Source of the DNA: Verrucomicrobiota bacterium
Lineage (GTDB): Bacteria > Verrucomicrobiota > Verrucomicrobiia > Limisphaerales > JBBRPK01
Reading direction: 5' to 3'
Assembly: GCA_038228235.1 (NCBI GenBank)
Contig: JBBRPK010000010.1
Span: 4,551-68,550 of the forward strand
DNA length: 64,000 nucleotides
A program made the position numbers and the translations under genes. Under the pieces are notes generated by a model. That model was not told where the DNA came from. It saw nothing but the letters and a program-made list of their open reading frames with translations, and ran no database searches. Below, piece after piece: positions 43,401 to 55,596 of this stretch; the stretch's first letter is position 1; each line of letters starts with the position of its first letter.

Positions 43401-43674
43401 GGGCGTCCCACAGTTGGCCCAGGTCTATGGCGCCGTTTTCGCAGCGGACGGATCATTCCGGATCGAGGATGTTCCATCCGCCGATTACAAGCTCAAGATT
43501 AATCTACTCGATTTACCCACCACGAATTTTGATAATGTGCGTGAAAATCTCCGAATCATCGGCTCCCTCGAAATGGATGTGAATATACCTCCGACGCTTG
43601 GTGACGGGGAGGAGCAACCTGTGGATTTGGGCATTCTCCGACTGACGACCGCGAGCCCCGGGTCGAGCGATTGA
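40402..43674 (+). CDS. ECF sigma-70 factor fused to a transmembrane helix and an ~800-aa extracytoplasmic region of carboxypeptidase-regulatory-like/Ig-like beta-sandwich repeats
   Basis: Region 2 is FRTLATRYIDLVYSAAWRQTGQVQAAQDVTQAVFMVLAR and region 4 is LGEKDRIAILLRFFEKKTLKQVGVAMGVSEDSAQKRVTRAIDKLR. TM segment FGSIAMLIAMAVVILT. These are followed by repeated G.V.D..G.P..GA.V modules. The ATG at 40402 (MNDFELL) is preferred to the GTG at 40396. Confidence 0.8.
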   Translation: MNDFELLQSYAHERCEEAFRTLATRYIDLVYSAAWRQTGQVQAAQDVTQAVFMVLARKAGTIRRETVLAGWLLRTTRFTASNARRLENRRRHYEGETMQSDIYPTETEAAWKQVAPLLDEALEHLGEKDRIAILLRFFEKKTLKQVGVAMGVSEDSAQKRVTRAIDKLRILLARRGKAVSMGALSGGLAVYSVQAAPGSLAAVLATAFRLAGTIKGAGVATLGGETLKALAREHFKILAVRFGSIAMLIAMAVVILTRKREPEAKTQFLAKSTPPPSSPAPAQVALGTPAKAGVAGTPLDMAEMQMRVLDSQTDAPVTNARLTLVSETSADRTTNSFVTDEKGATMISYSPMAGNSWSHQIEIFRDGYVPKFLSWSKSQEDHIGEIPAEYTLKLDPAVTIGGVVLDEQQAPISGVRVVFSVSGPSPGASRSRERLTMMGDYHVEATDERGRWTCSHVPKRFGMIDYRLVHPRYQEKLYASDSPDSPATVGVERVAEMDLLAAKSVMQIKSGLIIVGAVIDEAGQPVAGAKITQDFAFRDPQRTSLTSDEGTFQFHNGCPREVSLTVQAEGLAPLVTTVFVDARAERLRVTLPHGQLLLGRVVDELEQPIAHAIIKPRSPTADSRTIFEWHTKSDTEGRFSWENAPSSQEYAVEASEHESEGRIQLIANGTEQVIKLTKQTGAPVRIVIQVVEAETKRPPSGARVQIWETTREKNGSLSSFTTRPEDAGTDGILRLKTSPGAIRYALEAQADGYRPCRLTNEVTAVGNVHLQMELSRSPLCSGVVLTPKGEFAARATLVICSHNEWAQMSQPGKLGIDTFYIGTISDGEGQFRLPPKYAPESVVIAHAEGFQAVPYDKMSSNVVITLQPWGRIEGTLRLNGKPLDRAGIRLDRLHDSDGSPHVSMAFDVQTDQEGRFVFETVPPGEWMVEHAIRVRPLGKLRVDSPIGSHGVPVRVHPGETARLNLGGTGRPVLGRTMVPGNTRPILWTENSVVLTLKAASGVPQLAQVYGAVFAADGSFRIEDVPSADYKLKINLLDLPTTNFDNVRENLRIIGSLEMDVNIPPTLGDGEEQPVDLGILRLTTASPGSSD

Positions 43675-43759: not shown

Positions 43760-44017
43760 CTACTGGACTGCTCCACCCAACGCGCCACCCGCGCTCCGCA
43801 GGATCATGAGGTGCTGCTGGACAAGTCCGACCGCCTCGATTGGACCACCCTCTGCAAATGTGATTTTAATTATGCGGTGCCCCGCGGTGAGCTGAAGAAC
43901 CACGTCGTTCTGCACAATCCCGCGTTGGGCGAAATTGGAGAGTTCAGCCGTTCGCTCAATGGCGTATTTCTCGAAAATTGCGGGGACGATAATGTCCGCC
44001 ACTTGGGTTTTTACCAT
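43760..44017 (-). pseudogene. N-terminal fragment of a phage major capsid protein
   Basis: MVKTQVADIIVPAIFEKYAIERTAELSNFAQRGIVQND.. resembles the N-termini of HK97-fold capsid proteins recalled from podo/siphophages (..SDVIVPEVF.PYV...T.E.S.L.QSG.V..D). The ORF ends after 85 aa. It lies directly downstream of a scaffold-like gene. Confidence 0.4.
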
Positions 44018-44043: not shown

Positions 44044-44790
44044 TCAGGCAGCCGCTTTCAGTTGGCCAGCAAGGGCGGGATTGGTTCTGAGCAAGCGCAT
44101 TTGCTCGGTCAAGTTCCAGTCCGCGCCTTTGCGGAAAGGATTCTTTGCGCTCGCAGCCCCGCCGGAGCTGTTGCCCGTGGCCCCGCCACCGGCACTTGGT
44201 TCGAAGAGATGAGGGGCCTCTGTGACGAGAGATTCCACCCACTCATCAAGGGTTATTGGAGTCACACCATCCTTGCCGTAACGGATTCTGTCACCGTCCT
44301 GAGCCTGGGGAACGCCGTTCACCAGCTTGAAGACGCGCTGCGCCCTCAAAGTGACATCCGCAATGGCCGTGGAGCGCAGCCCGCGCTTGGACGCCGCCAC
44401 GATCACGCCCTGGTTAATCTGAATGTCGGAGAGCCGGGCGTTCAAGGCATCGCGTTCAGCCGCAGTGCGCTCCAAGTCGCCCTTGATTGACTGCACCCGG
44501 CTGGCGACGACCTTATCCACTTCACCCGCTTTGAGCGCAACCTTCTCTTCCAGATCACGTTTGGCCTGTTCGAGTTGCCTGGCCGTATCAGAGTCGATCC
44601 CGTCATATTTCCGTTTCAGATCATCGACCTGTTTGAGGAGTGCGACGTTGTTCGTCCGAAACTCATCGAGTTTCGCTTTGTCCGCAACGCCTTCGGCATC
44701 GAGGAAGAACGCGCCGTCGCGCTCGACGTAATGGGACTGGAGTTCCGCCGGAGCTTCGTCCTTCGATTTCAGTTTGTATTTTAACGACAT
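44044..44790 (-). CDS. Phage capsid scaffolding-like protein (coiled-coil)
   Basis: MSLKYKLKSKDEAPAELQSHYVERDG.FFLD..KLDEFRTNNVALLKQVDDLKRKY.. followed by the C-terminal NPFRKGADWNLTEQMRLLRTNPALAGQLKAAA is typical of the scaffold/GP20-like architecture. The ATG at 44790 is preferred. Confidence 0.55.
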   Translation of the reverse strand: MSLKYKLKSKDEAPAELQSHYVERDGAFFLDAEGVADKAKLDEFRTNNVALLKQVDDLKRKYDGIDSDTARQLEQAKRDLEEKVALKAGEVDKVVASRVQSIKGDLERTAAERDALNARLSDIQINQGVIVAASKRGLRSTAIADVTLRAQRVFKLVNGVPQAQDGDRIRYGKDGVTPITLDEWVESLVTEAPHLFEPSAGGGATGNSSGGAASAKNPFRKGADWNLTEQMRLLRTNPALAGQLKAAA

Positions 44791-45229
44791 AGATCGGCCG
44801 CATATTTCGCGGAGAGCGCAGATTACACCCTGTTTTCGCGGGAAAGGCGGCACACTCATCGCGGATATCCGAGCGGTCGAATCGCCGCGAATCGTGCCGC
44901 AAATAGGCGAAGGACCACGAAAAAGATTTTATCGAAAAAGGTTGACGTGTTGGGCGTAAGAGTGCGGTTGACAAACCCCTCTGTTGAAGCCGTAGCGCAA
45001 CGGTACCGAATCACAGGAATTGCTCGAAAGGTCACCAAAGTGTGGGTGGGCATCGAAGCCACTGAAACGACCGCCAAAGCGTCGCTCGACCCGCCGCATT
45101 CACTATAATGCACCTCAAAGGCTCAATTTTTCGGGGGACAGCTCCCCTAGCGGGCGTTTCCATGGTGAAGGCAGATTTGTGTTTTCTATAAACCAAAACT
45201 AAAACTCGTCGCGCCACCAAAACCAACCT

Positions 45230-46063
45230 ATGAAAAATGCCTTAGCCACTCTTATCCAGTCTCACCGCGGCAGTTTGCGGACGACCTTGGCGGTACTTGC
45301 CCTATTCGCAGCAATATTTCCCGCCCCCGAGCTCAATGCCCAGATCGCAGCTCCATTCCGTCCGCCAACCAAAGAGGAGCCAGCAAAGGCTTGGATTGGG
45401 AGAATCGCAGATGGAGGGTTGTTCTATAGCATGAAATTTGACGGTGGTCCTATGGTCAGGCTGAAACAGGTCTGGACGAATGCATTTACCAACGATAACT
45501 TCTTGATCGTCGCGTCGGCAGAAAATGTGGATCTGCCTCGTTTCGAAATTCGCGACGTGCTTTTACCCGAACTGGCGAGATCCATTGCCTTTCTCAGCCA
45601 AGGTGTGCTCACCGTCGAAGTGGTCGATCAGTCTTCGTTGATTCATCATTCGCACCAGGTAGCAGGGAATGAGGATGAGGCGGCGGAGATTATCAAAAAA
45701 ATTATAGAGGCGAAAAACGGGGGAAACATCTGGAGGATCACGGCGTCGTCCACGGAGGCTCCGACCGTCAAGATGCGTGCGGTCGCTGCTCCACATCTTT
45801 TTCCCGGAACGGGCAACATCACGCGCTTAGTGAAAGCTGCCGAGACGCTCGAGCAGGAGAGGCTCAAACTTGTCCAAATTTCCAGTGGAGTCCCGCGACG
45901 CGACCCTTCCAGAAATCCATTAACTCGTATTATTCCGCTCGACGATCAAAAAGTCGTGGTGCTCATCGGGGTGGAGGATGGGATTGCCGGAATCGAGAGC
46001 TTCATCCAAGCTTCCGAGCAGGCTTTTGCACAGTCGATGAGGCGGATGCCCGGTGAAAAATGA
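45230..46063 (+). CDS. Secreted hypothetical protein, first gene of the ECF sigma operon
   Basis: Signal-peptide-like LRTTLAVLALFAAIFPAPELNAQ. No recognisable motifs. The 3' end overlaps the sigma gene's start. Confidence 0.6.
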   Translation: MKNALATLIQSHRGSLRTTLAVLALFAAIFPAPELNAQIAAPFRPPTKEEPAKAWIGRIADGGLFYSMKFDGGPMVRLKQVWTNAFTNDNFLIVASAENVDLPRFEIRDVLLPELARSIAFLSQGVLTVEVVDQSSLIHHSHQVAGNEDEAAEIIKKIIEAKNGGNIWRITASSTEAPTVKMRAVAAPHLFPGTGNITRLVKAAETLEQERLKLVQISSGVPRRDPSRNPLTRIIPLDDQKVVVLIGVEDGIAGIESFIQASEQAFAQSMRRMPGEK

Positions 46064-46673
46064 CTCTAGAGCTGTCGCGTGGTCTCATATCCTTGCGGAA
46101 ATGGAAAGCGGGATCAATGAGCGGTGTGCCAAGCGTCCCCTGGCACAATGGACGCGCCGCTTGGCCGCTGGCGATGAGCAGGCTTGGGCTTGGTTCCACG
46201 AACGATACTACCTCTCACTCCTACGCTACGGCGCCCATTGTTGTGGCAATCCGTCAGCCGCGAGTGAAGTCGTGCAGCAGGCGTATATGCGGATCGCCCG
46301 GCATGCCAAACCCTTCGCCGAGGAATCGGATTTTTGGGGGTGGCTTTCCTGCCTGGTTCGGTGCGCTGCGGTCGATTACGGCCGCAATGTTAGGCGCCGG
46401 ATGGTTCTCTTGGAGAAATTCGCCCATTGGCGCGCCTTGCATTCCGAAAAGGAGGCCTCTTGGCATCCGTCTAGCAATCATGCCTCAGCCCTTGCTGAAG
46501 ATGCGTTGGCAAAATTGCCAGTTGACGATGCGGCGTTGTTGCGTCGCAAGTACTGCGACGGTTGGTCCACCTTGGAACTGTCGGCAGATCTCGGCGCGAC
46601 GCCCAAAGCCATTGAACACCGCCTCGCTCGACTGCGTGAGCGGCTGCGCGAAATCATCTTAAGCATTCAATGA
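46053..46673 (+). CDS. ECF-type sigma-70 factor
   Basis: Region 2-like WAWFHERYYLSLLRY..VVQQAYMRIARHAKPF..FWGWLSCLVRCAAVDYGR and region 4 LPVDDAALLRRKYCDGWSTLELSADLGATPKAIEHRLARLRERLR. Confidence 0.8.
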   Translation: MKNDSRAVAWSHILAEMESGINERCAKRPLAQWTRRLAAGDEQAWAWFHERYYLSLLRYGAHCCGNPSAASEVVQQAYMRIARHAKPFAEESDFWGWLSCLVRCAAVDYGRNVRRRMVLLEKFAHWRALHSEKEASWHPSSNHASALAEDALAKLPVDDAALLRRKYCDGWSTLELSADLGATPKAIEHRLARLRERLREIILSIQ

Positions 46674-47122
46674 ATCCTCCGCCCGATACCCTCCATCCAT
46701 TCCTGAAGAGCCTCATTGACGAAACGGCAGAACTGCCCCGATTGGCAGCCAGCGAAGCTCGGCGGTTTACCGCGCGGCAGGCTGAACGCCGCGCCCAGTT
46801 AACTTGGGCAGTGGCCATCGCCATGCTTGGCATGTGCTCTTGGGAAAGCCTCCATCTGCGGTGGCCTATTCCGAGGCAGGCTGGATCACCGCCAAAATTC
46901 GTCCAACAACCGCCCGCCCCGAAAGCGCCGCGACCGGCTGAATTCATCAAAGTCCAGACGATCCAGGAAGCCATGTCACAACCATTGCCAACTCCTCCTG
47001 GAGCCAGCCAGGAGCAAAAGGACCTGCTTGAAGCTGCCCGCGGTTTGCCCCTGGTCCTAGTGCTAGATGAGTCGGGTAAGCTGGCGCGAATTCACGTGGT
47101 CGAGCGCGTCGGGCCGCCTTAG
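46670..47122 (+). CDS. Putative single-pass anti-sigma factor
   Basis: ATGA overlap with the sigma gene. One TM segment (LTWAVAIAMLGMCSW) is followed by a Pro-rich linker. The call rests on position only. Confidence 0.45.
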   Translation: MNPPPDTLHPFLKSLIDETAELPRLAASEARRFTARQAERRAQLTWAVAIAMLGMCSWESLHLRWPIPRQAGSPPKFVQQPPAPKAPRPAEFIKVQTIQEAMSQPLPTPPGASQEQKDLLEAARGLPLVLVLDESGKLARIHVVERVGPP

Positions 47123-47366
47123 CGGGGGCGTTCCACATTCTTCTCGGCGAAGGAACTGAGGCGAAATCAGAGCTTGATGCCGTGTCTGGCAAAGCGGCTT
47201 CGTCACCGCGCCAATCGCTTCGTGCGATCCGAAGTGCCTTGGCTTTATTGTAGAGCGTTTGCCGGCCGATGCCGAGCAGCCCCGCCGCGCCATTCCATTT
47301 GCTGCTCTTCTCGAAGGCATTGGAGAATCTCCCGGCGCATTGCCAAACCAAGACGACCCTCCGCCT

Positions 47367-48360: not shown

Positions 48361-48447
48361 GCCCCGGAATCCGAACCAATCCACTGCCCCGAACCTCTAG
48401 CCCTGAGCGCGGGCAGCGCGACCGGAAGCGCTGCTTCCTTCTCCGCG
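48361..48447. repeat. ~87-bp imperfect direct repeat, copy 1 (partner at 53162-53250)
   Basis: GCCCCGGAATCCGAACCAATCCACTGCCCCGAACCTCTAGCCCTGAGCGCGGGCAGCGCGACCGGAAG.. against GCCCCGGACACCGAACTAATCCACTGCCCCGGACGTATAGCCCTAAGCGCGGGCAGCGCACCCGGAAA... Contains the hairpin CTGCCCC..GGGCAG. Confidence 0.7.
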
Positions 48448-49536
48448 CACCAGCAATCGCCGGAGATCACGCCAATGGCCGCGCCGCCGTAAGCGCAGCA
48501 GCTTTGACCGCAGCCGAGTTCGCAGGTCGTCCGGGATTTGGTCAACTTGCTCGCTTGCCGCGCTCGCCCAATGCTCCGGGAAATAGGTAAGCGACCATCG
48601 TGATTCACATGCACGCTTGAGTTTTTCCGGCAAAGCCGATTGCTCAATTTGGCACAGGTACGCGCGCCGCTCCTCAGAACGCGCCCGAGACTTGCGGAGA
48701 TGCACGATCCGCTTAGTCAACCCATGCCAAGCCGGAGACATGCGCTCGCCGGACAGCCTTTGCACGACCGCTTCGAGCAGGTCGTCAGAGAGTAAGCTAA
48801 GAGCCTTCTCAGGGATTTTCGCCCAACGCTCAGGACATGCAGACGCGATTGCCGGTGCAGCATCCGCGACCGCCCGAAGGACCGCCGCCGGTCCTTCGCC
48901 TTCGACGGCCTGGAATCGCACTTCTTGCGCCGCTGCTTCGGCCTTGCATCGTTCAATCTCCCGTTGCTCCCGCTCCTTCTGACGCAGCAATTCTGCTTTC
49001 CGCTCCAACTCGCGCCGCTCCAATTCTGCCCGCCAAGCCGGAAGCGCTTGTTCAAGCACAGGATGGCGATTTGCGATTGCCTCGAAATAATCGAGAAGGT
49101 GCATCGCGTCTTCCCGTTGCGCCTCAGGGCGGACAGTCGCCGCCAGGAGCGAGGGAGCAATGGCGGAATGAAGATGGAAGAGGGGTCTGAATGCCGGCGG
49201 CCGGCATCGGATATTGAACCTCCAGACACCCTGATTGCCGACGGAGAGGTGTATAATTTGCCACGCGAGACGAGGATCAAAAGGCGCTCGCTCAGCCCAT
49301 TTGCTGACAAACCCCTCGAATTCGGCATCATCCAACAACGCCAGCAGCCAAAGAAGTTGCCGGTGCTTTTCAAAGGTCGGCACGTCGCAGGAAGAAATGG
49401 CGTCCACAATCAGCTTGCGGCTGCCCTGGTCCAGCTTCTCAAACTTCAGTCGGATTCCGTAGTTGCATTTCAGGCAATCCCAACCACAGCCTTTGTTCTG
49501 CTCCAACCACTCGATAGCTCTTTCTATGGCCGCCAT
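48397..49536 (-). CDS. Hypothetical protein (Cys-rich N-terminus, central coiled coil)
   Basis: MAAIERAIEWLEQNKGCGWDCLKCNYG.. followed by RAELERRELERKAELLRQKEREQREIERCK. No recognised domain. The ATG at 49536 lies 14 nt after the integrase-tail stop. Confidence 0.6.
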   Translation of the reverse strand: MAAIERAIEWLEQNKGCGWDCLKCNYGIRLKFEKLDQGSRKLIVDAISSCDVPTFEKHRQLLWLLALLDDAEFEGFVSKWAERAPFDPRLAWQIIHLSVGNQGVWRFNIRCRPPAFRPLFHLHSAIAPSLLAATVRPEAQREDAMHLLDYFEAIANRHPVLEQALPAWRAELERRELERKAELLRQKEREQREIERCKAEAAAQEVRFQAVEGEGPAAVLRAVADAAPAIASACPERWAKIPEKALSLLSDDLLEAVVQRLSGERMSPAWHGLTKRIVHLRKSRARSEERRAYLCQIEQSALPEKLKRACESRWSLTYFPEHWASAASEQVDQIPDDLRTRLRSKLLRLRRRGHWRDLRRLLVRGEGSSASGRAARAQG

Positions 49537-49549
49537 ACACACCGCCGTT

Positions 49550-50000
49550 TTACATCTTTGCCAGCAGTGGCAGCAAGCACGCATTGCTCTGTTTCAGCTT
49601 CTTCGCCTTCATCCCCTCGACAATCCCCCGCATTTCATCCTTTGCCGACGTCTGCCCGTTGGTGGGCAGCTTTGGAATAGCCGATTGCAGCACCAGCGGG
49701 AAATCCTCACGCCGCCGCCCCAACCGGCAGTGCCACGATGTTCGATGGCCTCTGACCTCTGCTTCCGGGTCGCTTCCACCGCCTCAGGGGTAATTCCGAA
49801 CCACTTCTCCGCATCCGCTGGCCGGACGATCTCACGGTAATTCGTGAACACCATCCGAGGCGAGCTCCCGGCTTCCGGGCGGCTGCTTCTCGATGAGATG
49901 GCCCAGGATGCCGCAGGAGATTTTGCCTGCCAGCGAGGCGCGAGGGGGGCGCATATCCGCAGCGATCTGTAACGACCGAGCAACGAAGCTGGAAGGCAAG
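49550..50000 (-). pseudogene. Frameshifted 3' remnant of a tyrosine integrase gene (copy 1)
   Basis: ..EAGSSPRMVFTNYREIVRPADAEKWFGITPEAVEA.. is homologous to 54671-54945 (93 nt at 49772-49864 against 54741-54833, ~90% identical by eye). A LLRHPG (box II-like) segment lies upstream in another frame. The tail ..SAKDEMRGIVEGMKAKKLKQ.. is in a third frame. Confidence 0.55.
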
Positions 50001-50132
50001 AGATCAAGGCATGTTGGGCCAGGTATGAGGGAACAGCCGCCTTACGCCACCGCCGCAACCGTAATTGCCAATCGTTCCATCTCTGAAGGCTGATTCATAG
50101 CAGCGGATTTACCAAACCGCCGAAGGTCAGCC

Positions 50133-50822
50133 TTAGGGCTGAGGCAGTACAGAGGATTCCTCTTTAGTGAAGGCGATCTGCCAGAGGAAGAAATTATCCT
50201 GAAGAAATACGCGTGAGAACCAACCGGGCGTCCAGAACCTCGTCAGGAGCTGCGAGAAATTATCTCCTAAGGGTTCAACCTCGGATTTCATTCTCCCCAC
50301 CGGGTCAACGAGAACCAGCCAATCCTCATCCCCATGCGCAAAGGCTTTCCCGGCGACCACCAGAGTTTTGGCGTCGAGGCTGGCCCTTGCCTGCTCGCAC
50401 CAGATACGGTGTTGCTCATCCGGGGAGAGAGGAATCACCATCGCGGGCCTTCCGAACCCCTCCTGCATAACCTCTGTCCTCTTGCGCGGGCCAGTTGGCT
50501 GTGAATAGACGCTTGAAACCGCAAGTGTCCTCCTTACCCCTTTCTGCTGGAGCGCTCGTCCGTGTTCTACGTCCTGAAACGCGATTCTGGTTAGCTCTAC
50601 TGCAATCCTGCGCCCGCCTACCTCCAATTGAAAGTCCGGAACCTGATCGCTCGTATGGGACACTCGAATCGGATATTGGAGAATCGGCGTGTGTGCCAAT
50701 GCTTCGAGCAGGTGCGCCATTTGACTCCTTTCATTGGCCACGGTATTTGTGAATCTGCCGTTGAGCAAGGCTGGGCAGATCGAGTCCGAAAGTTCTTCCG
50801 GCGTGTTCGCGCTAAAATCCAT
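50133..50822 (-). CDS. Hypothetical protein, possible PD-(D/E)xK-like nuclease fold
   Basis: MDFSANTPEEL... The only motif-like feature is VPDFQLEVGGRRIAVELTRI (D...E.T in place of D...E.K). The ATG at 50822 lies 2 nt after an integrase-tail stop. Confidence 0.55.
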   Translation of the reverse strand: MDFSANTPEELSDSICPALLNGRFTNTVANERSQMAHLLEALAHTPILQYPIRVSHTSDQVPDFQLEVGGRRIAVELTRIAFQDVEHGRALQQKGVRRTLAVSSVYSQPTGPRKRTEVMQEGFGRPAMVIPLSPDEQHRIWCEQARASLDAKTLVVAGKAFAHGDEDWLVLVDPVGRMKSEVEPLGDNFSQLLTRFWTPGWFSRVFLQDNFFLWQIAFTKEESSVLPQP

Positions 50823-50824
50823 CT

Positions 50825-50945
50825 TCACAGGTTTGCCCACCGCATCAGCAAACGCGCCTTGTCCTTCTTCCAGCTTTTCGCCGTCATGCCCTCGATAATC
50901 TCACGCATTTCGTCCTTCGGCAACTTGCCCGCCTCGCCTTAGCCT
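50825..50945 (-). pseudogene. Tail-only remnant of an integrase 3' end (copy 2)
   Basis: GEAGKLPKDEMREIIEGMTAKSWKK.. parallels the ..SAKDEMRGIVEGMKAKKLKQ tail at 49550-49660. The DNA is similar (..TCATSCCCTCGAYAATC..CGCATTTC.TCCTT..). Confidence 0.4.
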
Positions 50946-51011
50946 CGTCGGGAAGGCAGGTGCCCGCTTGCCGCGCCGGAGGCAGACACAAGCGGGGTCA
51001 ACAGCCTCGGC

Positions 51012-51209
51012 ATGGCCGATTGCAAAGCCCGCAAGAAATCCAAGAACAACAACCTGACCCTCGATTCCTTCATCATTTCAAAAACGCCCTACGATGACTT
51101 GGTTAAACGTCACGGTCCTGAGTGGACGAGGGAAAAGTACGCGGAGGCCCACATATTTTTCGGTGACGAGCCAGAAAGGGCTCACATTGAAGCGGTCATT
51201 AAGGGCTAA
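51012..51209 (+). CDS. Small hypothetical protein (65 aa)
   Basis: ORF only. No motifs recognised. Confidence 0.35.
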   Translation: MADCKARKKSKNNNLTLDSFIISKTPYDDLVKRHGPEWTREKYAEAHIFFGDEPERAHIEAVIKG

Positions 51210-51570
51210 CGCGTGCCAACCCAAGGCCATACGCTCGGCGAGCGGGCAAGGGGCCGCGTCTCAGAAATCAAAAACGCGGACACTCCCGCACTCCCGCAGT
51301 CATGCTGCCTCTGCCCCGCCATTCTCCCGTCCCGGTTCAGCCTTTTTTGGCTCTCTTTCTTGAGTCTGTACAATGGCTGACCCAGTGCTTAAGCTGCTCC
51401 CGCAGCTTTGGTATCATCACCGCACGAAGTCCCGGAGGCGATTTGATCATTTGGACTATTATCATCGGCGAATCGCGTGATTTGCAACGAATACTGTAGC
51501 CCGTTTCGGGGTCATTTCGGAGTCGGTCAACGGTATTGACATGCAGGCGTGGCGAGCGATTCTCGTGGGT

Positions 51571-51663
51571 ATGGCCAGAAAATTAGTAATTCAGCATCCG
51601 GGAGCGATTTACCACCTGAGGACCCGTGGTGAAGAACGACATGAATCTCGAAAGTCGAAATGA
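51571..51663 (+). pseudogene. N-terminal fragment of an IS200/IS605-type Y1 (REP-associated, RAYT-like) transposase
   Basis: MARKLVIQHPGAIYHLRTRGEERHE.. matches the conserved N-terminus (MARP.RI..PG..YHV..RGN.R) of Y1 transposases. It stops after 30 codons. Confidence 0.5.
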
Positions 51664-51998
51664 GAGTTTATCCAGTCGATCCAACAGTTCAAAAGATTTG
51701 GAAGTTCTACCCGATCAGAATTCCAGGCGGGTCTAAGTGTTCCAAATGCCGCGAGGAAACCGTCCTCGTCCAAAGCATGACGGGCGGCTTCGTCACACGA
51801 AACTGCCCCACCCACAACATTCCAATGAAGCTGCCCGAAGCGACCTTCATGAAACTGGGCCTGTGGGTTGCTTGCCCGCGGTGCAGGCGCCGCATGTCGG
51901 CTCAAATCCTGCAAGACCAGAACTACGGATATGCGTGTGGCCCCTGCGGTCTAGTAATCCAACTCTTTAAGCTGCTGCCTCTGTACTCTGATCTGTGA
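51660..51998 (+). CDS. Double zinc-ribbon hypothetical protein (112 aa)
   Basis: CSKC..(18)..CPTH and CPRC..(17)..CGPC spacing is typical of zinc ribbons. The ATG overlaps the stop of the RAYT fragment (ATGA). Confidence 0.5.
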   Translation: MRVYPVDPTVQKIWKFYPIRIPGGSKCSKCREETVLVQSMTGGFVTRNCPTHNIPMKLPEATFMKLGLWVACPRCRRRMSAQILQDQNYGYACGPCGLVIQLFKLLPLYSDL

Positions 51999-52016
51999 TG
52001 CAATGGGCCGGAGCTG

Positions 52017-52157
52017 ATGAAGCACGAAAAGATACCCGCCGAGGACGTCGAGCGTGCAAGTGGACGCCTTGACGTATGCAGCGTTTGCACAAAGTTCTTC
52101 AGATCGAATTCGACAGACACGGGCATTTTTCTTTGTCCGAAGTGTGGCATGAGGTAA
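52017..52157 (+). CDS. Small zinc-ribbon protein (46 aa), not in the ORF track
   Basis: MKHEKIPAEDVERASGRLDVCSVCTKFFRSNSTDTGIFLCPKCGMR has a CxxC..(16)..CxxC pattern. It starts 19 nt after the previous gene. Confidence 0.4.
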   Translation: MKHEKIPAEDVERASGRLDVCSVCTKFFRSNSTDTGIFLCPKCGMR

Positions 52158-52208
52158 CAAAGATGAACTCTGATCAGCATTCCGGGACCGAGCCCGAAAT
52201 CCGAACGC

Positions 52209-52616
52209 TCAAAGTCCCCTGTCATCACCCTCTCGCCAGATCCACTCCAGCGCAGGGTCAGCCAGTCCCCACAATTTCATAGCATTCCCGCCGAAGCCCA
52301 TAGCCTCGCCCAGCCATCGCCGCCCCTCGTCCCGCCTGTTCAATCGGCAAGCCTCCACCGCAAGCGCGTAGCACGTTTCCGTCCGCAGTCCCGGCGCCAT
52401 TCTCATCACCACGGAAGCCAATTCCACCGCCGTTTCCCATTTCCCGGCAGCCGCATAGATGCGCCAGCGCACCGCCAGAACCTCCGGATGCCCCCGAAGA
52501 CGAGCATCAATCTGCTCCAGTTCCTCGTTCGCCTCGAGGTAGTTCCCCAAGCCGAGCCAACCCATGTCGGCCTCGACGAAACGCACCGCCTCGATTGGAA
52601 ACGGCCCCATATTCAT
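52209..52616 (-). CDS. Small TPR-like repeat protein (135 aa)
   Basis: GLGNYLEANEELEQIDARLRGHPEVLAVRWRIYAAAGKWETAVELASVVMRMAP shows TPR-type helical hairpin periodicity. Its ATG overlaps the HNH gene's stop (ATGA). Confidence 0.65.
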   Translation of the reverse strand: MNMGPFPIEAVRFVEADMGWLGLGNYLEANEELEQIDARLRGHPEVLAVRWRIYAAAGKWETAVELASVVMRMAPGLRTETCYALAVEACRLNRRDEGRRWLGEAMGFGGNAMKLWGLADPALEWIWREGDDRGL

Positions 52617-53173
52617 TGCACCGCCAGGACAGTCGTGAGGCCATCACCGCTCAGCAACCCGGCGTTGTTCAACTGCCTCGCCAGACTCCTCTGCCGTTGC
52701 CCGATTTTGGCGCTTTTCCCCTCATTCATCCGTAGCGGCATCAGCTCGAGATTGGCAATCACATGGTCCAGCTCCGGCGCGACCTTGAGGGGAATAATAT
52801 GGTCCACGCTCGCATGGTCGCCCGCATAAGGACCACGGCGGACCGTCGCTCCATGGCCCTTCCGCATCCCGGCTAATCCCGCCTCATCCAGACACCCAAG
52901 CCGCTCCGCAATTACCAAATTCCGCAGCATCGCCTCCGAAGTTAATTGTGCCGCCGCTCCCTTCATTCCCACGAGCGCCACCGCGTCCTTCACCACGCGC
53001 TCAGGCGGAAGTCCCGCCGCCTTGGCCTCTGCGAGTTGCGCTACATATTTCTCCACCCGCGGATTCGCCCGCCGTTGTCCCAGGGTGGCAAGTTTCGCAG
53101 GGTCAATAAGGCTGGCAACTTTCTGGGAATAACTGGCCAGTTCCACCGCAGGCACCAAGAGGGCCCCGGACAC
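52613..53173 (-). CDS. HNH-family nuclease domain protein (186 aa)
   Basis: C-terminal GDHASVDHIIPLKVAPELDHVIANLELMPLRMNEGK fits the HNH motif (DH..P...N......N). There are no zinc-binding cysteines. The N-terminal ~110 aa is unassigned. GTG start. Confidence 0.7.
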   Translation of the reverse strand: MSGALLVPAVELASYSQKVASLIDPAKLATLGQRRANPRVEKYVAQLAEAKAAGLPPERVVKDAVALVGMKGAAAQLTSEAMLRNLVIAERLGCLDEAGLAGMRKGHGATVRRGPYAGDHASVDHIIPLKVAPELDHVIANLELMPLRMNEGKSAKIGQRQRSLARQLNNAGLLSGDGLTTVLAVQ

Positions 53174-53250
53174 CGAACTAATCCACTGCCCCGGACGTAT
53201 AGCCCTAAGCGCGGGCAGCGCACCCGGAAACTCCGTTTCCTTTTCAGCCG
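53162..53250. repeat. ~87-bp imperfect direct repeat, copy 2 (partner at 48361-48447)
   Basis: See 48361-48447. It lies in the divergent region between the HNH gene and the 269-aa orphan. Confidence 0.7.
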
Positions 53251-53326
53251 CCGCAGTTCACCGCACCGACCGTCAGTCCCAGCACCTTGACAATAGCACT
53301 GGCACCGCGACAATACGCTTGAGCCG

Positions 53327-54136
53327 ATGATGCTACAGTCAACCACAGAAGAATTGCTGATCGTCACGAAAACCTACCCTTCGCCAAGCACCAAATATCG
53401 AGAGACGACATGCGTTGCAGCTATCAACGTTCAAGGCCAGATGCGCCGCCTTTTTCCAGTGCCTTACCGTTTGCTCGATGGAGACTCACAATTCAAAAAA
53501 TGGGAGTGGATCAACGCGCGAATCAGCAGGGCCGACGGGGATAATCGCCCGGAGAGCCACCGCATCGACGCGGATTCAATAGATCGTCCCGGCAAAGTGA
53601 TCGCAACGAAAAATGGCGACTGGACTGAACGCCTCGGCTGGATAAAGCCCCATGTCGTGGAAAGCTTCACTGCGTTGGAGGCTCGACGCCAGAAAACCGG
53701 CGAAACCCTGGGCTTCATTCGCCCCGACCGGATCACTTTAAAAATCAGCCCGACCAAAGAGCCTGACTGGACGGACGCCGATAGAATAAAGCTCTCCCAA
53801 GATGGACTTTTCGACAGCATCGAGGTCAAGGGCCGCCACCCACTGCGTAAACTGCCGTATGACTTCCATTATGAGTACGAATCTGGCAACGAGACGCAAA
53901 CCCACAAGCTGACGGATTGGGAAATCGGGGCACTGTATTGGAAGTGCATCGCGGCCTACGGGCCGAAGGGATGGGAGGAGAAGTTCCGTCTACGGCTGGA
54001 ACAGGATTTCGCCACGAAGAATCTCCATTTGCTGATGGGCACGATTCATCGGTTCCCCGAGCAATGGCTCATCGTTGGAATTGTTTACCCGCCTAAGCAG
54101 CAACAGCTTCACGCCGAACAACTCGGCCTGTTATAG
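53327..54136 (+). CDS. Conserved-looking hypothetical protein (269 aa), no recognisable domain
   Basis: Long clean ORF with ordinary composition (LIVTKTYPSPSTKYRETTCVAAI..RLFPVPYR...DWEIGALYW..). The 3' end overlaps the DUF488 gene by 44 nt in convergent orientation. Confidence 0.65.
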   Translation: MMLQSTTEELLIVTKTYPSPSTKYRETTCVAAINVQGQMRRLFPVPYRLLDGDSQFKKWEWINARISRADGDNRPESHRIDADSIDRPGKVIATKNGDWTERLGWIKPHVVESFTALEARRQKTGETLGFIRPDRITLKISPTKEPDWTDADRIKLSQDGLFDSIEVKGRHPLRKLPYDFHYEYESGNETQTHKLTDWEIGALYWKCIAAYGPKGWEEKFRLRLEQDFATKNLHLLMGTIHRFPEQWLIVGIVYPPKQQQLHAEQLGLL

Positions 54137-54578
54137 GCCCGGTGAGATGATAAATCCGCACGCTGTCACCCGCCAGAGCAACAACCCGCTCCGCGACAAA
54201 TGAGCGGTGACAGAAATTGTAATCTTCTTCGTAACAGACAAGGCAACACCGTTCGGTTTGCATCCACGCGGCTAGGCGTTCAAGGGCTGTCTCCTGAGTT
54301 TCCAAATACTCCTTGAACCGTCGCGTATAGTTAGTCCAGTCACCATCATCCCGGTATTCATGCCGAACGGCCCGAGGGCAGCCTAACTCCGCAACATGCT
54401 CGTATTTCATGCCCCGTGCCGTCACAGCCGCTTTTAAGGCCGATTTGGCAAAGCCAGGCCGCCGACTAATCGGCAGTTCTCGCACATCCACCAGCATCGA
54501 AACGTGACACCGCTCCAGAAGCTCGAAAAACGCCTCTGGCGTCTGCCCCTCATAACCGACTGTCATTAGTTCAATCAT
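54093..54578 (-). CDS. DUF488 (YeaO-like) family protein
   Basis: LMTVGYEGQTPEAFFELL....V..LVDVRE.P.SRRPGFAK..L........Y.H...LG.P......Y.....W..Y...F..YL........L..........CL.C.E.....CHR matches the DUF488 consensus as remembered. Confidence 0.85.
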   Translation of the reverse strand: MIELMTVGYEGQTPEAFFELLERCHVSMLVDVRELPISRRPGFAKSALKAAVTARGMKYEHVAELGCPRAVRHEYRDDGDWTNYTRRFKEYLETQETALERLAAWMQTERCCLVCYEEDYNFCHRSFVAERVVALAGDSVRIYHLTGPITGRVVRREAVAA

Positions 54579-54670
54579 GGACTTGCCGCTTTTAATGCCA
54601 GAGCGAACCCGCTCCGGCCAGTTTAATCAACCCACGTATCATGCGCACAGCAAAAGCAGGTCCAACGGCC

Positions 54671-54945
54671 TCACGCCGCCGCGACCACGGGCAACGCCAC
54701 GATGTTGGACGCTGCTCCGGTCTGCCGCGCCGCCTTGGCCGCTTCCACCGCCTCAGGCGTGATTCCAAACCACTTTTCTGCATCCGTTGGCCGGACGATT
54801 TCCCGGTAATTCGTGAACACCATCCGAGGCGAGTTGCCAGCTTCCAAGGAAACCTTTGCCACGTCCTGCGTTTGCGCCACCCGATAGCTGATGAACGAAT
54901 GCCTCAGCGCATTGTGCTTCCAGGCAAAGAGCCTTTCCCCTGCCC
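54671..54945 (-). pseudogene. C-terminal ~90 codons of a tyrosine integrase (copy 3), truncated upstream by a tandem repeat, next to ssrA
   Basis: ..ERLFAWKHNALRHSFISYRVAQTQDVAKVSLEAGNSPRMVFTNYREIVRPTDAEKWFGITPEAVEAAKAARQ..* contains a box II-like H..LRHS and the catalytic-Tyr region (..NY). No N-terminal or core-binding part is present. Confidence 0.7.
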
Positions 54946-54946
54946 C

Positions 54947-55002
54947 GTCCTCGGTCCTCCGTCCTCGGTCCTCCGTCTTCCGTCTTCCGTCTTCCGTCTT
55001 CC
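54947..55002. repeat. Tandem repeat: 2 x 14-mer (GTCCTCGGTCCTCC) followed by 4 x 7-mer (GTCTTCC)
   Basis: Read directly from 54947-55002. It lies between the integrase remnant and the ssrA 3' end. Confidence 0.9.
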
Positions 55003-55063
55003 GTCCACATGGGGCGATACTGTCCGAAGCGCAAACACTTTCTTCATTTTCCCAAGAAAAAAG

Positions 55064-55415
55064 TGGTGGAGGCGGCGGGAGTTGAACCCGCGTCCCTGAA
55101 CAAGGAACCAGCCGCGACTACATGCTTAGTCAGAAGAGAGTTTCAGCCGCCGGATAACGTTCTGACCCGAATCCGGTTGCCTAGTCAGCATGGAAAAGTT
55201 TCAGCGTACCGCGCGCTGTCTCCGCGTTTCGCCAAGCCTGCTGTGGCGTTCATCCACCGTAGCAGGCGTCCAGTGGTGAACGTCGCGACACGTTAGGCCG
55301 CGAGAGCTAATTCTTGGTTAGCAGTTATTTTTGGTCCGATGATTTACGAGGCCCACGAACCATCCTCGGCATGCCGCCTCTGGCGCATTTTCCAGGTCGA
55401 AACCAGTACGCCCCC
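55064..55415 (-). ncRNA. ssrA: tmRNA (transfer-messenger RNA)
   Basis: 5' end GGGGGCGTACTGGTTTCGACCTGG and 3' end GGACGCGGGTTCAACTCCCGCCGCCTCCACCA. The acceptor stem has a G3:U70 pair and the T-arm is GCGGG-TTCAACT-CCCGC. The internal tag frame AAAAATAACT GCT AAC CAA GAA TTA GCT CTC GCG GCC TAA (55293-55322) encodes ANQELALAA. Confidence 0.92.
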
Positions 55416-55457: not shown

Positions 55458-55506
55458 GGATGAACAGACGGCAGTGGCATCGTGACAATTTGAATCCTCC
55501 CATGGC

Positions 55507-55569
55507 AGGACGAGTTCCACGAGTCCCGATTTCCTCGAGGGTCGATCAGGGACTCGTGGAACTCGTCCT
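55507..55569. repeat. Long-hairpin repeat, family B, copy 3
   Basis: AGGACGAGTTCCACGAGTCCC (21-nt loop) GGGACTCGTGGAACTCGTCCT. It lies between the SGNH-like gene and ssrA. Confidence 0.85.
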
Positions 55570-55596
55570 TCCCAGGGGGGCGACTGAAAGGCCTAA

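What the first reader, a model, noticed from the sequence alone, without database searches (positions are those of the whole stretch)
49550..55415. Decayed, serially accreted island anchored at the 3' end of ssrA, full of orphan genes
The tmRNA gene (55064-55415, minus strand) is followed on its 3' side by three same-orientation 3' remnants of tyrosine-integrase genes.
- 54671-54945 reads ..WKHNALRHSFISY..GNSPRMVFTNYREIV...
- 49550-~50000 is frameshifted and shares ~93 nt at ~90% identity with the first.
- 50825-50945 is a tail-only piece.
The two distal remnants are followed within 2-14 nt by an unrelated small gene, and the ssrA-proximal one by the DUF488 gene ~90 nt downstream. tmRNA 3' ends are classic integration sites, so this looks like repeated integration and erosion. 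The cargo is almost entirely unannotatable: an HNH + TPR pair, a 269-aa orphan + DUF488, two zinc-ribbon proteins, a nuclease-like orphan and a RAYT stub. That makes this the best place in the window for an undescribed conflict or defence module.
Basis: partly seen in the sequence, partly recalled or inferred. Interest (0 to 1): 0.7.

Follow-up and report, generated by a model that had tools for sequence, protein, structure and literature searches.

The report
Decayed genomic island beside tmRNA gene
Next to the tmRNA gene of this Verrucomicrobiota genome lies an ordinary, immobilised patchwork of old integrated elements: two dead integrase stubs, phage head-gene fragments and one intact-looking candidate anti-phage gene pair.

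Summary
The tmRNA gene is confirmed at 55064-55415 (-). Two of the three claimed integrase remnants are real.

- **Tail 1 (54671-54979)** matches the last 75 residues of a full-length integrase that follows the tmRNA gene in a metagenomic relative (E 8e-30).
- **Tail 2 (49705-49931)** is a frameshifted copy.
- **The third piece (50825-50945)** is not integrase. It is a pseudogene copy of the small ORF that follows tail 2.

Tail 1 comes from an internal deletion. The 53-nt leader and the integrase ATG survive next to ssrA, followed by a 62-nt heptamer repeat and then the tail. A 97%-identical strain still has an intact integrase N-terminus at this spot.

The integrase belongs to a large Verrucomicrobiota family that sits after tmRNA or tRNA genes. 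About 48 of 80 metagenomic loci hold a full-length copy.

The island (about 43.7-55.06 kb) also holds portal, scaffold and capsid fragments. No attR repeat and no compositional deviation were found.

The "269-aa orphan + DUF488" is PADLOC candidate PDC-M19, which is widespread and untested.

Verdict: a new member of a known kind. One side observation stands out: a conserved 54-nt motif specific to these islands.

The parts
55064..55415 (-). tmRNA gene (ssrA), tag ANQELALAA; integration target
   Evidence: ARAGORN; Rfam RF00023, 172.5 bits; 97% identical in L106
55008..55063 (-). Retained integrase leader (53 nt, one degenerate copy of the TTCCTGACAG repeat) plus the integrase start codon ATG (55010-55008)
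   Evidence: blastn: window 55415-55008 aligns to L027 516-926 (82%), ending on the int ATG of L027. Leaders of 10 tmRNA loci are listed.
54945..55006 (-). Heptanucleotide tandem repeat (AGGACGG x 8.9) at the deletion junction, probably linker-derived
   Evidence: TRF score 82. A similar TEDRGQK-type linker occurs in homologue P0001.
54671..54979 (-). Integrase tail 1: last ~75-100 codons (box II LRH, GNS, catalytic-Tyr region, C-terminal extension), out of frame with the retained ATG
   Evidence: tblastn vs L001 int residues 346-420, E 8e-30; blastn to L027 2011-2265, 79%; translation
54093..54578 (-). DUF488 protein (161 aa), PDC-M19A-like partner
   Evidence: Pfam PF04343 5e-29. PADLOC PDLC04505 8e-35 covers only the C-terminal half of the profile. 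Orthologous pairs with 161-183 aa DUF488 proteins occur in L053, L112-L114.
53327..54136 (+). PDC-M19B protein (269 aa), convergent with DUF488 and overlapping its 3' end; predicted tandem OB-fold-like
   Evidence: PADLOC PDLC04508 7e-56, full length; phrog_25907 3e-37; 1408 homologues; AF2 pLDDT 87.6; weak Foldseek hits to LEF-3, HIN-200 and RPA
53192..53245 (-). D2 motif copy b: conserved 54-nt island-associated element
   Evidence: the repeat finder D2; 98% identity over 44 nt to L004; CM R1 72 bits
52613..53173 (-). HNH-like nuclease ORF (186 aa), weak
   Evidence: Pfam HNH E 0.043; PHROG endonuclease VII / HNH E 0.004-0.006; no phage match
52209..52616 (-). TPR-like ORF (135 aa), overlaps the HNH stop
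   Evidence: Pfam TPR_19 E 7e-4, below cut-off
51660..52157 (+). Two small zinc-ribbon ORFs (112 aa at 51660-51998; 46 aa at 52017-52157)
   Evidence: Only sub-threshold Zn-ribbon Pfam hits
50828..51076 (-).
   Evidence: tblastn X1 vs window 51040-50846, 40% over 65 aa, E 1.6e-5; no integrase hit
50133..50840 (-). 235-aa ORF of unknown function
   Evidence: No Pfam, PHROG, PADLOC, NCBIfam, PDB or phage hit
49705..49931 (-). Integrase tail 2, frameshifted, with an internal ~37-nt deletion
   Evidence: tblastn E 1e-11; 109-nt repeat at 89% to tail 1; alignment A1
49550..49723 (-). X1: 57-aa small ORF overlapping the end of tail 2
   Evidence: ORF list; paralogue of X2; no family hit
48397..49536 (-). 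395-aa ORF (probable true start at Met17, 49536); small real protein family, function unknown
   Evidence: 29 representatives at E<=1e-3 and 13 at <=1e-30; alignments start at residue 17; no family or PDB hits
48390..48443 (-). D2 motif copy a
   Evidence: the repeat finder D2, 83% to copy b; CM R1 69.5 bits
47367..48338 (-). Phage portal protein fragment (lacks about 190 N-terminal residues)
   Evidence: Pfam DUF4055 3e-30; phrog_145 1e-53, profile positions 198-470/493; phage portals at 33-38% identity, E 1e-33
45230..47122 (+). Opposite-strand block between portal and scaffold: 277-aa ORF, ECF sigma factor (46053-46673), putative anti-sigma (46670-47122)
   Evidence: Pfam Sigma70_r2/r4_2/ECF; position inferred from the ORF map
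44044..44859 (-). Phage head scaffolding protein (apparently full length)
   Evidence: phrog_206 7e-37, profile 2-262/263; Pfam Phage_scaffold 9e-7
43760..44017 (-). Major capsid protein N-terminal stub (first ~56 of ~350 residues); innermost recognisable island remnant
   Evidence: phrog_247 major head protein 7.5e-6, profile 3-60/351; phrog_19632 2.7e-8

Best explanation
The stretch from about 43.7 kb to the 3' end of ssrA (55063) is a fixed, degraded composite of integrative elements.

**How it was built.** The elements were delivered by a Verrucomicrobiota family of tyrosine integrases. This family inserts at the 3' ends of tmRNA and tRNA genes and leaves its own gene immediately downstream of the target, in the same orientation.

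**The ssrA-proximal element.** Its integrase was killed by one internal deletion running from codon 2 to the variable linker just before box II. What remains is leader + ATG + a heptamer repeat + an out-of-frame 3' tail. Its first cargo slot still carries an apparently intact DUF488 / PDC-M19B gene pair, followed by the family's conserved 54-nt D2 motif and an HNH/TPR pair.

**The older element.** About 5 kb further in, a second and more decayed left end has the same layout: frameshifted tail 2, a small ORF X1, a 395-aa gene and a D2 copy. It runs into fragments of a phage head module (portal, scaffold, capsid stub) that is interrupted by an ECF sigma / anti-sigma block. A pseudogene copy of X (X2) followed by a 235-aa ORF may be the scar of a third element.

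**Consequence.** With no working integrase and no detectable att repeat, nothing here can excise. It now behaves as ordinary chromosome.

**Shown and inferred.** Shown: the identities, the deletion anatomy, the family's habit and the strain polymorphism. Inferred: the order and number of integration events, and any activity of the cargo.
For: 1. tmRNA gene confirmed.
2. Tail 1 and tail 2 match the C-terminus of a roughly 420-aa recombinase that follows the tmRNA gene in L001. Its N-terminal part hits XerA/XerD models (2.6e-8). A full-length member, L053, hits Pfam Phage_integrase at 8.9e-5.
3. In 80 metagenomic loci retrieved with the tail, about 48 hold a full-length gene and 46 of those have no in-frame stop. 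The gene sits 60-200 nt after a tmRNA gene (9 loci) or after tRNA-Leu, Val, Arg, Ser or Pro.
4. Window 55415-55008 aligns to tmRNA + leader + ATG of L027, and window 54924-54670 aligns to the last 255 nt of the same gene. A 7-nt x 8.9 repeat lies between them.
5. L106 is 97.3% identical over 4.3 kb of flank + tmRNA. It continues into an open integrase N-terminus of 205 aa, up to the contig end.
6. Relatives at 55-85% identity keep the upstream four-gene operon. They have no ssrA and no window genes downstream of it.
7. Portal, scaffold and capsid fragments are present.
8. L053 carries the same DUF488 + M19B pair (66% and 69% identity, same arrangement) behind an intact integrase at tRNA-Val, next to Mrr-like and type I R-M genes.
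9. The D2 motif follows int or a tail on the same strand in 16 of 16 hits. It is absent from about 250 kb of control loci and from the rest of the window.
Against: - No direct repeat of the ssrA 3' end (attR) and no leader-like scar was found anywhere in 43.6-54.6 kb. The best match is a 13-mer inside an ORF at 29.57 kb, at chance level. The distal boundary (about 43.7 kb) therefore rests only on where recognisable mobile-element genes stop.
- GC and tetranucleotide composition do not set the region apart.
- No close relative with an empty site was found.
- The tail sequence does not discriminate tmRNA-specific from tRNA-specific integrases, so tail 2 need not have entered via ssrA.
- Tails 1 and 2 are more alike (89%) than either is to any outside relative (<=82%), which fits duplication as well as serial integration.
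- The L106 contig ends inside the integrase. It is therefore unknown whether that strain carries the same island.
Confidence: 0.82

Rival explanations
1. There was one island, not several. The second module (tail 2 ... D2a) arose by a segmental duplication of the first (tail 1 ... D2b) inside a single element, followed by replacement of the intervening genes.
For: - The two tails are 89% identical over 109 nt and the two D2 copies 83% over 86 nt, with similar spacing (4969 and 4802 nt).
- The tails are closer to each other than to any of 80 outside relatives.
- No att scar lies between the modules.
Against: - The sequences between tail and D2 are unrelated in the two modules: DUF488/M19B in one, X1/p395 in the other.
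- The layout int - variable slot - D2 is the standard left end of independent elements of this family (L030, L032, L050, L052, L058 and others). Two such left ends are what two elements would leave.
- Tail 2 is clearly more decayed than tail 1.
Confidence: 0.15
2. The integrase is split as in archaeal SSV-type elements. In this reading attP lies inside the int gene, so integration places the C-terminal fragment next to ssrA and the N-terminal fragment at the far end of the element.
For: - The tail lies right after ssrA on the same strand.
- tRNA-Leu genes followed within about 100 nt by a tail alone recur in L030 and L043.
- All 120 best protein-database hits to the tail are short ORFs.
Against: - The window keeps the normal leader and the int ATG between ssrA and the tail, which is the signature of an internal deletion.
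- 46 intact full-length genes sit directly after their tDNA.
- No N-terminal integrase fragment exists anywhere in the 55 kb downstream of ssrA.
- No ssrA-like sequence was found in the retained tail 1 / linker remnant or elsewhere in the window; linkers of intact integrase genes were not searched.
Confidence: 0.02
3. The tails are not random debris. Either a site-specific or hotspot process cuts integrase genes at the variable linker just upstream of WKHNALRH, or the tails are retained because they do something (for example interfere with incoming integrases, or carry signals for the cargo).
For: - Among about 21 non-edge 5'-truncated remnants, 12 retain <=78 nt upstream of the WKHN codons and none retains 505-1025 nt.
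- Left junctions differ between remnants: ATG, residue ~55-70, or foreign genes.
- Heptamer repeats sit at several junctions.
Against: - The search required the tail, so erosion of old pseudogenes plus this ascertainment also piles remnants up at the minimum detectable length.
- The tails carry frameshifts or stops (window tail 2; L004), and tail 1 is out of frame with its ATG. This argues against a protein function.
- Different tDNA targets are involved, so one shared secondary att site is unlikely.
Confidence: 0.15
4. The region is ordinary, vertically inherited chromosome. In this reading the integrase-like pieces are chance similarities or belong to a single old pseudogene with no island.
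For: No compositional deviation, no att repeats, and no empty-site relative.
Against: - E-values of 8e-30 and 1e-11 to a tmRNA-adjacent integrase.
- Phage portal and scaffold hits at 1e-53 and 7e-37.
- Strain polymorphism at the exact junction.
- Loss of synteny at ssrA in all relatives.
Confidence: 0.02

Closest known systems
tDNA/tmRNA-anchored genomic islands as catalogued by Islander/TIGER (PMC4383910, PMC12424338); examples are E. coli CP4-57 at ssrA (own knowledge) and the tandem ssrA islands of Dehalococcoides (PMC3146451)
   Same: - A tyrosine integrase gene lies immediately downstream of the tmRNA gene on the same strand.
- The cargo is variable and includes defence genes and phage genes.
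- Several element remnants lie in a row at one tDNA.
- Content is polymorphic at strain level.
   Different: - The defining displaced 3' fragment of the target (attR) is not detectable.
- Both integrases are dead, so this is a fossil rather than a mappable island.
- The integrase clade (long variable linker before box II, GNS instead of GHS, sub-threshold Pfam score) and its Verrucomicrobiota host range were not found described in the literature searched.
PADLOC phage defence candidate PDC-M19, one of 145 untested candidates predicted by guilt-by-embedding (bioRxiv 10.1101/2024.01.29.577857)
   Same: - The 269-aa protein matches PDC-M19B end to end (7e-56).
- Its neighbour is a DUF488 protein that matches PDC-M19A (8e-35).
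- The convergent, 3'-overlapping arrangement is conserved across phyla and occurs inside R-M loci (L112, L053).
   Different: - The DUF488 partner here, and in four other loci, is the short 161-183 aa form. It covers only the C-terminal half of the 294-position PDC-M19A profile.
- Defence activity is untested for any member.
Cryptic or defective prophages (head-module remnants of tailed phages)
   Same: Portal (DUF4055 / phrog_145), scaffold (phrog_206) and major-capsid (phrog_247) genes lie in phage order on one strand.
   Different: - The portal lacks about 190 N-terminal residues and the capsid gene is a 56-residue stub.
- No terminase, protease, tail or lysis genes are present.
- An ECF sigma / anti-sigma block is wedged between portal and scaffold.
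Variable cargo hotspots of integrative elements, such as defence hotspots of P2/P4-like elements (own knowledge) and pipolins (PMC11551731)
   Same: A slot of unrelated genes sits between two conserved landmarks: the int 3' end and the D2 motif. In different copies the slot is occupied by PDC-M19, an AAA+NUDIX protein, a HEAT-repeat protein or unknowns.
   Different: The distal landmark is a 54-nt non-coding motif rather than a core gene. Enrichment for defence genes was not shown: 1 of 10 slot proteins had a PADLOC hit.

Membership tests
Tyrosine recombinase / phage integrase superfamily | Significant match to a curated integrase profile (Pfam PF00589 or NCBIfam Xer models) | tested here: inconclusive
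   - The fragments themselves give no Pfam hit at E<=1.
- The full-length relative L053 scores 22.8 bits, E 8.9e-5, below the 27.1 cut-off.
- The N-terminal part of L001 hits XerA at 2.6e-8 and XerD at 5e-4, far below the equivalog cut-offs.
- Superfamily membership is credible; no named subfamily applies.
Tyrosine recombinase / phage integrase superfamily | Box II motif (H-x-L-R-H), the G-H/N-S turn and the nucleophile Tyr in the C-terminal ~60 residues | tested here: met
   Tail 1 reads WKHNALRHSF..EAGNSPRMVFTNYREIV. K, N, A, L, R, H, S, G, N, P, F, Y and E are invariant in 17 family members. Catalytic competence is irrelevant here because the gene is truncated.
tDNA/tmRNA genomic island (Islander definition) | Integrase gene adjacent to a tRNA or tmRNA gene | tested here: met
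   A remnant with leader and ATG lies 53 nt after ssrA. An intact gene occupies the same place in L106 and in 9 other tmRNA loci.
tDNA/tmRNA genomic island (Islander definition) | Displaced 3' fragment of the target gene (attR direct repeat) marking the far end | tested here: not met
   The 26-mer with <=3 mismatches matches only ssrA itself. The longest exact repeat is 13 nt, inside an ORF at 29.57 kb. Local alignment of the ssrA end + leader against 43.6-54.6 kb scores no better than shuffles.
tDNA/tmRNA genomic island (Islander definition) | Absent from, or different in, close relatives at the same site | tested here: met
   In L106 (97% identical) the sequence diverges from the window inside the leader and continues into an intact int. 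Relatives at 55-85% identity lack ssrA and all island genes after the conserved operon. No true empty site was seen.
PADLOC PDC-M19 candidate defence system | PDC-M19B protein present, full length | tested here: met
   PDLC04508 7.1e-56, residues 8-262 on profile positions 4-267/269.
PADLOC PDC-M19 candidate defence system | PDC-M19A protein present, adjacent | tested here: inconclusive
   The adjacent DUF488 protein hits PDLC04505 at 7.9e-35, but only on profile positions 150-293/294. The same short form accompanies M19B in L053, L112, L113 and L114, so it is a natural variant rather than a truncation.
PADLOC PDC-M19 candidate defence system | Protects against phage | not testable with these tools
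   The authors list PDC systems as untested candidates.
Intact prophage | Complete head, packaging, tail and lysis modules | tested here: not met
   Only a portal fragment, a scaffold gene and a capsid stub were found. No terminase, tail or lysis hits appear among the island ORFs that were scanned.
   The 40-aa peptide MARKLVIQHPGAIYHL.. gives no Y1_Tnp hit at E<=0.5. The resemblance to RAYT N-termini is from memory only.

The most novel reading that the evidence does not exclude
The window preserves two fossil left ends of an undescribed family of Verrucomicrobiota tDNA/tmRNA islands. Their architecture is integrase - variable cargo slot - conserved 54-nt D2 motif.

In this reading D2 is a functional site: a recombination or protein-binding site, or a cis-regulatory element that delimits a cargo-exchange hotspot. 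The surviving slot cargo would be an active two-gene defence system, made of a tandem-OB-like DNA binder (PDC-M19B) and a DUF488 effector.
Probability: 0.25. Interest if true: 0.5.

Novelty: new member of a known kind. Interest (0 to 1): 0.3.

Why it matters
As it stands this is a textbook outcome. tmRNA genes are integration hotspots, and old islands decay there. It adds a Verrucomicrobiota example and shows that the 'orphan' cargo is mostly already catalogued or uninformative.

Three by-products may be useful:
- **An integrase clade.** It is large, mostly intact, and targets tmRNA and at least five tRNA species in Limisphaerales-like bacteria. It could serve as a handle for mapping islands in this poorly studied phylum.
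- **A conserved 54-nt motif.** It is specific to these islands and fixed in orientation.
- **Context evidence for PDC-M19.** The DUF488 + PDC-M19B pair travels on such islands and inside R-M loci. The B protein has a confident model that weakly resembles tandem OB-fold DNA binders. This gives a starting hypothesis for testing PDC-M19.

Tried and rejected
- **Pfam on the three fragments:** no integrase hit. I went through full-length relatives instead.
- **Protein-database search with the tail:** it returned only short ORFs. This briefly suggested a conserved stand-alone tail gene or a recoded integrase, because L001 has an in-frame TAG and L003 a frameshift at nearly the same place. I rejected this after the DNA-level scan showed 46 of 48 full-length genes without stops.
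- **SSV-type split integrase:** rejected by the retained leader + ATG.
- **attR search:** 26-mer with 3 mismatches, exact k-mers >=11 nt, and Smith-Waterman against shuffles. All were negative. The 13-mer at 29.57 kb lies inside an ORF with unrelated flanks.
- **Relatives via the upstream 405-aa gene in genome contigs:** 19 loci, none with ssrA. These were too distant to define the island boundary.
- **'Mini tail end' at 50040-50080 (..LAITVAAVA*):** only 66% over 41 nt of GC-rich sequence. I treat it as not significant.
- **D2 as a known RNA:** no Rfam hit. Single-sequence folding energies are not unusual, with z-scores from -2.0 to +0.6. The pattern scan of IMG/VR gave 11 partial, spurious matches.
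- **D2 as a marker of a phage packaging module:** HNH, portal and a TerL-like ORF follow three copies, but other copies have unrelated neighbours. Rejected.
- **DUF488 structure from a single sequence:** pLDDT 46, unusable.
- **Other ORFs:** p235 vs p395 showed no similarity. p235 and HNH had no match in phage genomes.
- **Heptamer repeat as an integrase-specific feature:** period-7 arrays are the commonest tandem repeats throughout these genomes.

Full report
**1. Observation**

ARAGORN places a tmRNA gene at 55064-55415 on the minus strand, with tag ANQELALAA. Rfam agrees (RF00023, 172 bits).

The minus-strand translation downstream of ssrA reads ..GERLFAWKHNALRHSFISYRVAQTQDVAKVSLEAGNSPRMVFTNYREIVRPTDAEKWFGITPEAVEAAKAARQTGAASNIVALPVVAAA*, with the stop at 54671.

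A second, frameshifted copy lies at 49705-49931. Its DNA repeat 49768-49876 vs 54737-54845 is 109 nt at 89% identity.

Pfam does not recognise either fragment at E<=1, so I looked for full-length relatives.

**2. What the tails come from**

A protein search with tail 1 gave 224 hits, and the best 120 were all ORFs of 50-156 aa.

One of these lies on a 328-kb metagenomic contig (L001). There, a tmRNA gene with the same tag is followed 64 nt later, on the same strand, by a roughly 420-aa recombinase gene with one in-frame TAG.

- Its N-terminal part hits XerA/XerD models (2.6e-8).
- tblastn of this protein against the window finds tail 1 (residues 346-420, window 54979->54749, E 8e-30) and tail 2 (residues 389-420, E 1e-11). 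It finds nothing at 50825-50945.

It shares 40% identity over 65 aa, at E about 2e-5, and carries an in-frame stop.

**3. The integrase family**

A metagenome scan with an alignment of tails (A2) returned 80 loci.

- About 48 hold a full-length gene, and 46 of these have no in-frame stop.
- The gene lies 60-200 nt downstream of a tmRNA gene (L027, L028, L029, L034, L038, L048, L050, L062, L070) or of tRNA-Leu, Val, Arg, Ser or Pro, always on the same strand.

This is therefore a common and mostly functional family of classical tDNA-targeting integrases in Verrucomicrobiota. The short-ORF bias was an artefact of that search and of scattered pseudogenes.

A full-length member (L053, 541 aa) reaches only 22.8 bits on Pfam Phage_integrase. 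The reason is a long variable linker that splits the catalytic domain just before box II.

**4. Anatomy of tail 1**

Window 55415-55008 aligns at 82% to tmRNA + leader + start codon of L027 (516-926). Window 54924-54670 aligns at 79% to the last 255 nt of the same gene. Between them lies a heptanucleotide repeat, 54945-55006, 8.9 copies.

The ssrA-proximal remnant is therefore an internal deletion running from codon 2 to the linker. It is not a truncation by an incoming element, and it is not an SSV-type split gene. The retained ATG (55010-55008) is out of frame with the tail.

A contig from a near-identical strain supports this. L106 is 97.3% identical over window 59335-55016. It has the same operon and tmRNA gene, then a leader with two TTCCTGACAG repeats (the window keeps one degenerate copy). 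It then continues into an open integrase N-terminus of 205 aa, up to the contig end. The site is therefore polymorphic within the species, and the deletion is probably recent.

**5. Extent and content of the island**

*Synteny.* Relatives at 55-85% protein identity share the four-gene operon at 55.6-60.7 kb. They have neither ssrA nor any window gene after it.

*Gene order.* Reading away from ssrA, the region contains:
- tail 1
- DUF488 (54093-54578, -)
- a 269-aa gene (53327-54136, +)
- motif D2b
- an HNH-like ORF and a TPR-like ORF
- two zinc-ribbon ORFs and a 65-aa ORF on the other strand
- X2 (pseudogene) and a 235-aa ORF
- tail 2, X1 and a 395-aa ORF
- motif D2a
- a portal fragment (DUF4055 3e-30; phrog_145 1e-53, profile 198-470/493)
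- a weak Fis-type HTH fragment
- an opposite-strand block of a 277-aa ORF, an ECF sigma factor and a putative anti-sigma
- a scaffold gene (phrog_206 7e-37)
- a 56-residue capsid stub (phrog_247)

*Boundary and att sites.* The capsid stub ends at 43760, and a 1092-aa sigma-fusion gene ends at 43674. No attR was found. The ssrA 3' 26-mer with <=3 mismatches occurs once. The longest exact repeat is a 13-mer inside an ORF at 29.57 kb. Alignment of the ssrA end + leader against 43.6-54.6 kb scores no better than shuffles.

*Composition.* GC and tetranucleotide profiles do not single out the region. This fits long residence, or donors of the same clade.

**6. One element or several**

Each tail is followed after 1.3-1.4 kb of unrelated genes by a copy of the same motif, D2.

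The same layout occurs in many independent elements: int (or tail), then a variable slot of 0.14-2.8 kb, then D2 on the int strand. Examples are L004, L030, L032, L033, L040, L046, L048, L050, L052, L058 and L063.

Two such left ends 5 kb apart, the inner one more decayed, are best read as two elements. X2 + p235 may be the scar of a third.

This remains an inference, for three reasons:
- No att scars separate the modules.
- The tail does not discriminate target classes.
- The two tails are closer to each other than to any outside relative, so duplication cannot be excluded (given 0.15).

**7. Cargo**

*The DUF488 / 269-aa pair.* PADLOC identifies the 269-aa protein as PDC-M19B (7e-56, end to end). 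It identifies the DUF488 protein as PDC-M19A (8e-35), but only over the C-terminal half of that profile.

- PDC systems are 145 untested candidates predicted by guilt-by-embedding (bioRxiv 10.1101/2024.01.29.577857).
- M19B has 1408 homologues across phyla.
- The convergent, 3'-overlapping pair with a short DUF488 recurs in four places. In L053 it sits behind an intact integrase of this family at tRNA-Val, next to Mrr-like and type I R-M genes. In Ornatilinea apprima it lies between a DNA methyltransferase and a ResIII/endonuclease gene. It also occurs in L113 and L114.
- An AlphaFold2 model of M19B is confident (pLDDT 87.6, pTM 0.86). Its best PDB matches are tandem OB-fold DNA binders (LEF-3, HIN-200 domains, RPA, telomere end-binding proteins). 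The scores are weak, with E from 1e-4 to 1e-2 and TM 0.3-0.36. I take 'nucleic-acid binder' as a hypothesis only.

*Other ORFs.*
- The 395-aa ORF belongs to a small real family: 29 representatives, with alignments starting at Met17.
- The 235-aa ORF, X, HNH, TPR and the zinc-ribbon ORFs gave nothing above threshold.
- The 'RAYT stub' has no profile support.

**8. Side observations**

*D2 motif.*
- A covariance model (R1) finds 16 credible copies in 738 kb of held sequence. All are in integrase-bearing loci and all are on the integrase strand. None occurs in about 250 kb of control loci or elsewhere in the window.
- One soil copy is 98% identical to the window's over 44 nt.
- Covariation in its two short hairpins is modest: 8 double-sided changes against 3.2 expected.
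- Folding energies are unremarkable and no Rfam family matches.

*Breakpoints.* 5'-truncated remnants of this integrase pile up at the linker: 12 of about 21 retain <=78 nt upstream of WKHN. Because the search required the tail, erosion plus ascertainment can explain this.

*Heptamer repeats.* Period-7 tandem repeats are the commonest repeat class in these genomes and sit at several tail junctions.

**9. Verdict**

The core of the finding holds: a decayed, immobile mosaic of integrative elements at ssrA.

- Two of the three claimed integrase remnants are real.
- The mechanism that produced the proximal remnant is an internal deletion.
- The 'orphan' defence pair is an already listed, untested candidate.

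This is a new member of a well-known kind of locus. Interest is low to moderate, and it comes mainly from the integrase clade, the D2 motif and the PDC-M19 context.

Noticed in passing
window 53192-53245 (-) and 48390-48443 (-); also L004 8336-8389, L052 7352-7405, L063 7754-7806, L032 4180-4233, L033 8032-8085 and 10074-10127, and others: A conserved 54-nt motif (GGAAAC-GGA-GTTTCC GGGT GCGC-TGCCC-GCGC TnAGGGCTAAAGG) lies 0.14-2.8 kb downstream of this integrase family, always on the integrase strand. It is absent from control loci and from Rfam. It often sits 30-270 nt upstream of a cargo gene transcribed towards int. Its function is unknown.
   Followed up: partly
loci L026-L105 (metagenome), L001, L053, L106: A large, mostly intact clade of Verrucomicrobiota tyrosine integrases sits directly after tmRNA, tRNA-Leu, Val, Arg, Ser or Pro genes. 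Members have a highly variable linker (about 20 to more than 120 residues) just before box II, and GNS in place of the usual GHS. They score below the Pfam gathering cut-off.
   Followed up: partly
window 54945-55006; L004 7727-7761; L037 168-383 and 906-1047; L091 729-753; controls L010, L011, L023, L024: Heptanucleotide tandem repeats with many different unit sequences are the commonest tandem-repeat class in these genomes (40 of 200 arrays in 850 kb). They occur right at the 5' junctions of several integrase tail remnants.
   Followed up: partly
L030 5965-6255, L043 179-466, L032, L083, L091, L094, L098, L104, L004, window tails: 5'-truncated integrase remnants cluster at the linker: 12 of about 21 keep <=78 nt upstream of WKHNALRH. 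Some are in-frame internal deletions that fuse the first 55-70 residues to the tail (P0120, L097). This could be a hotspot, or erosion plus ascertainment.
   Followed up: partly
L004-L006 8001-10700: The same integrase tail, carrying an in-frame stop and with no tmRNA gene nearby, lies next to a BubE / ThiF-JAB / Prok-E2 operon, a ubiquitin-like conjugation defence-type operon, in soil contigs.
   Followed up: no
window 55496-55527 / 55549-55580: A 32-nt inverted repeat (88% complementary, 21-nt loop) lies between the stop of the 405-aa gene and the 5' end of ssrA. It is probably the terminator of the upstream operon. L106 keeps it.
   Followed up: no
window 45230-47351: An ECF sigma / anti-sigma pair plus a 277-aa ORF on the opposite strand, and a weak Fis-type HTH fragment, are wedged between the portal and scaffold remnants. 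ECF-sigma genes also follow the integrase in L001, L003 and L033, so they may be regular cargo of these islands.
   Followed up: no
L001 7992-7994; L003 ~7990: Two independent integrase pseudogenes are broken at almost the same place, just before the linker: TAT->TAG in L001, and a 1-nt frameshift in an A-run in L003.
   Followed up: partly
window 49550-49723 and 50828-51076: A small ORF family X (..DFLRALQSAMPRL..KDEMREIIEGM..) occurs twice. Each copy lies immediately upstream of an unrelated larger ORF (395 aa and 235 aa). No homologues were found in any fetched locus and no profile hit was obtained. It is possibly a small partner of two-gene modules.
   Followed up: partly
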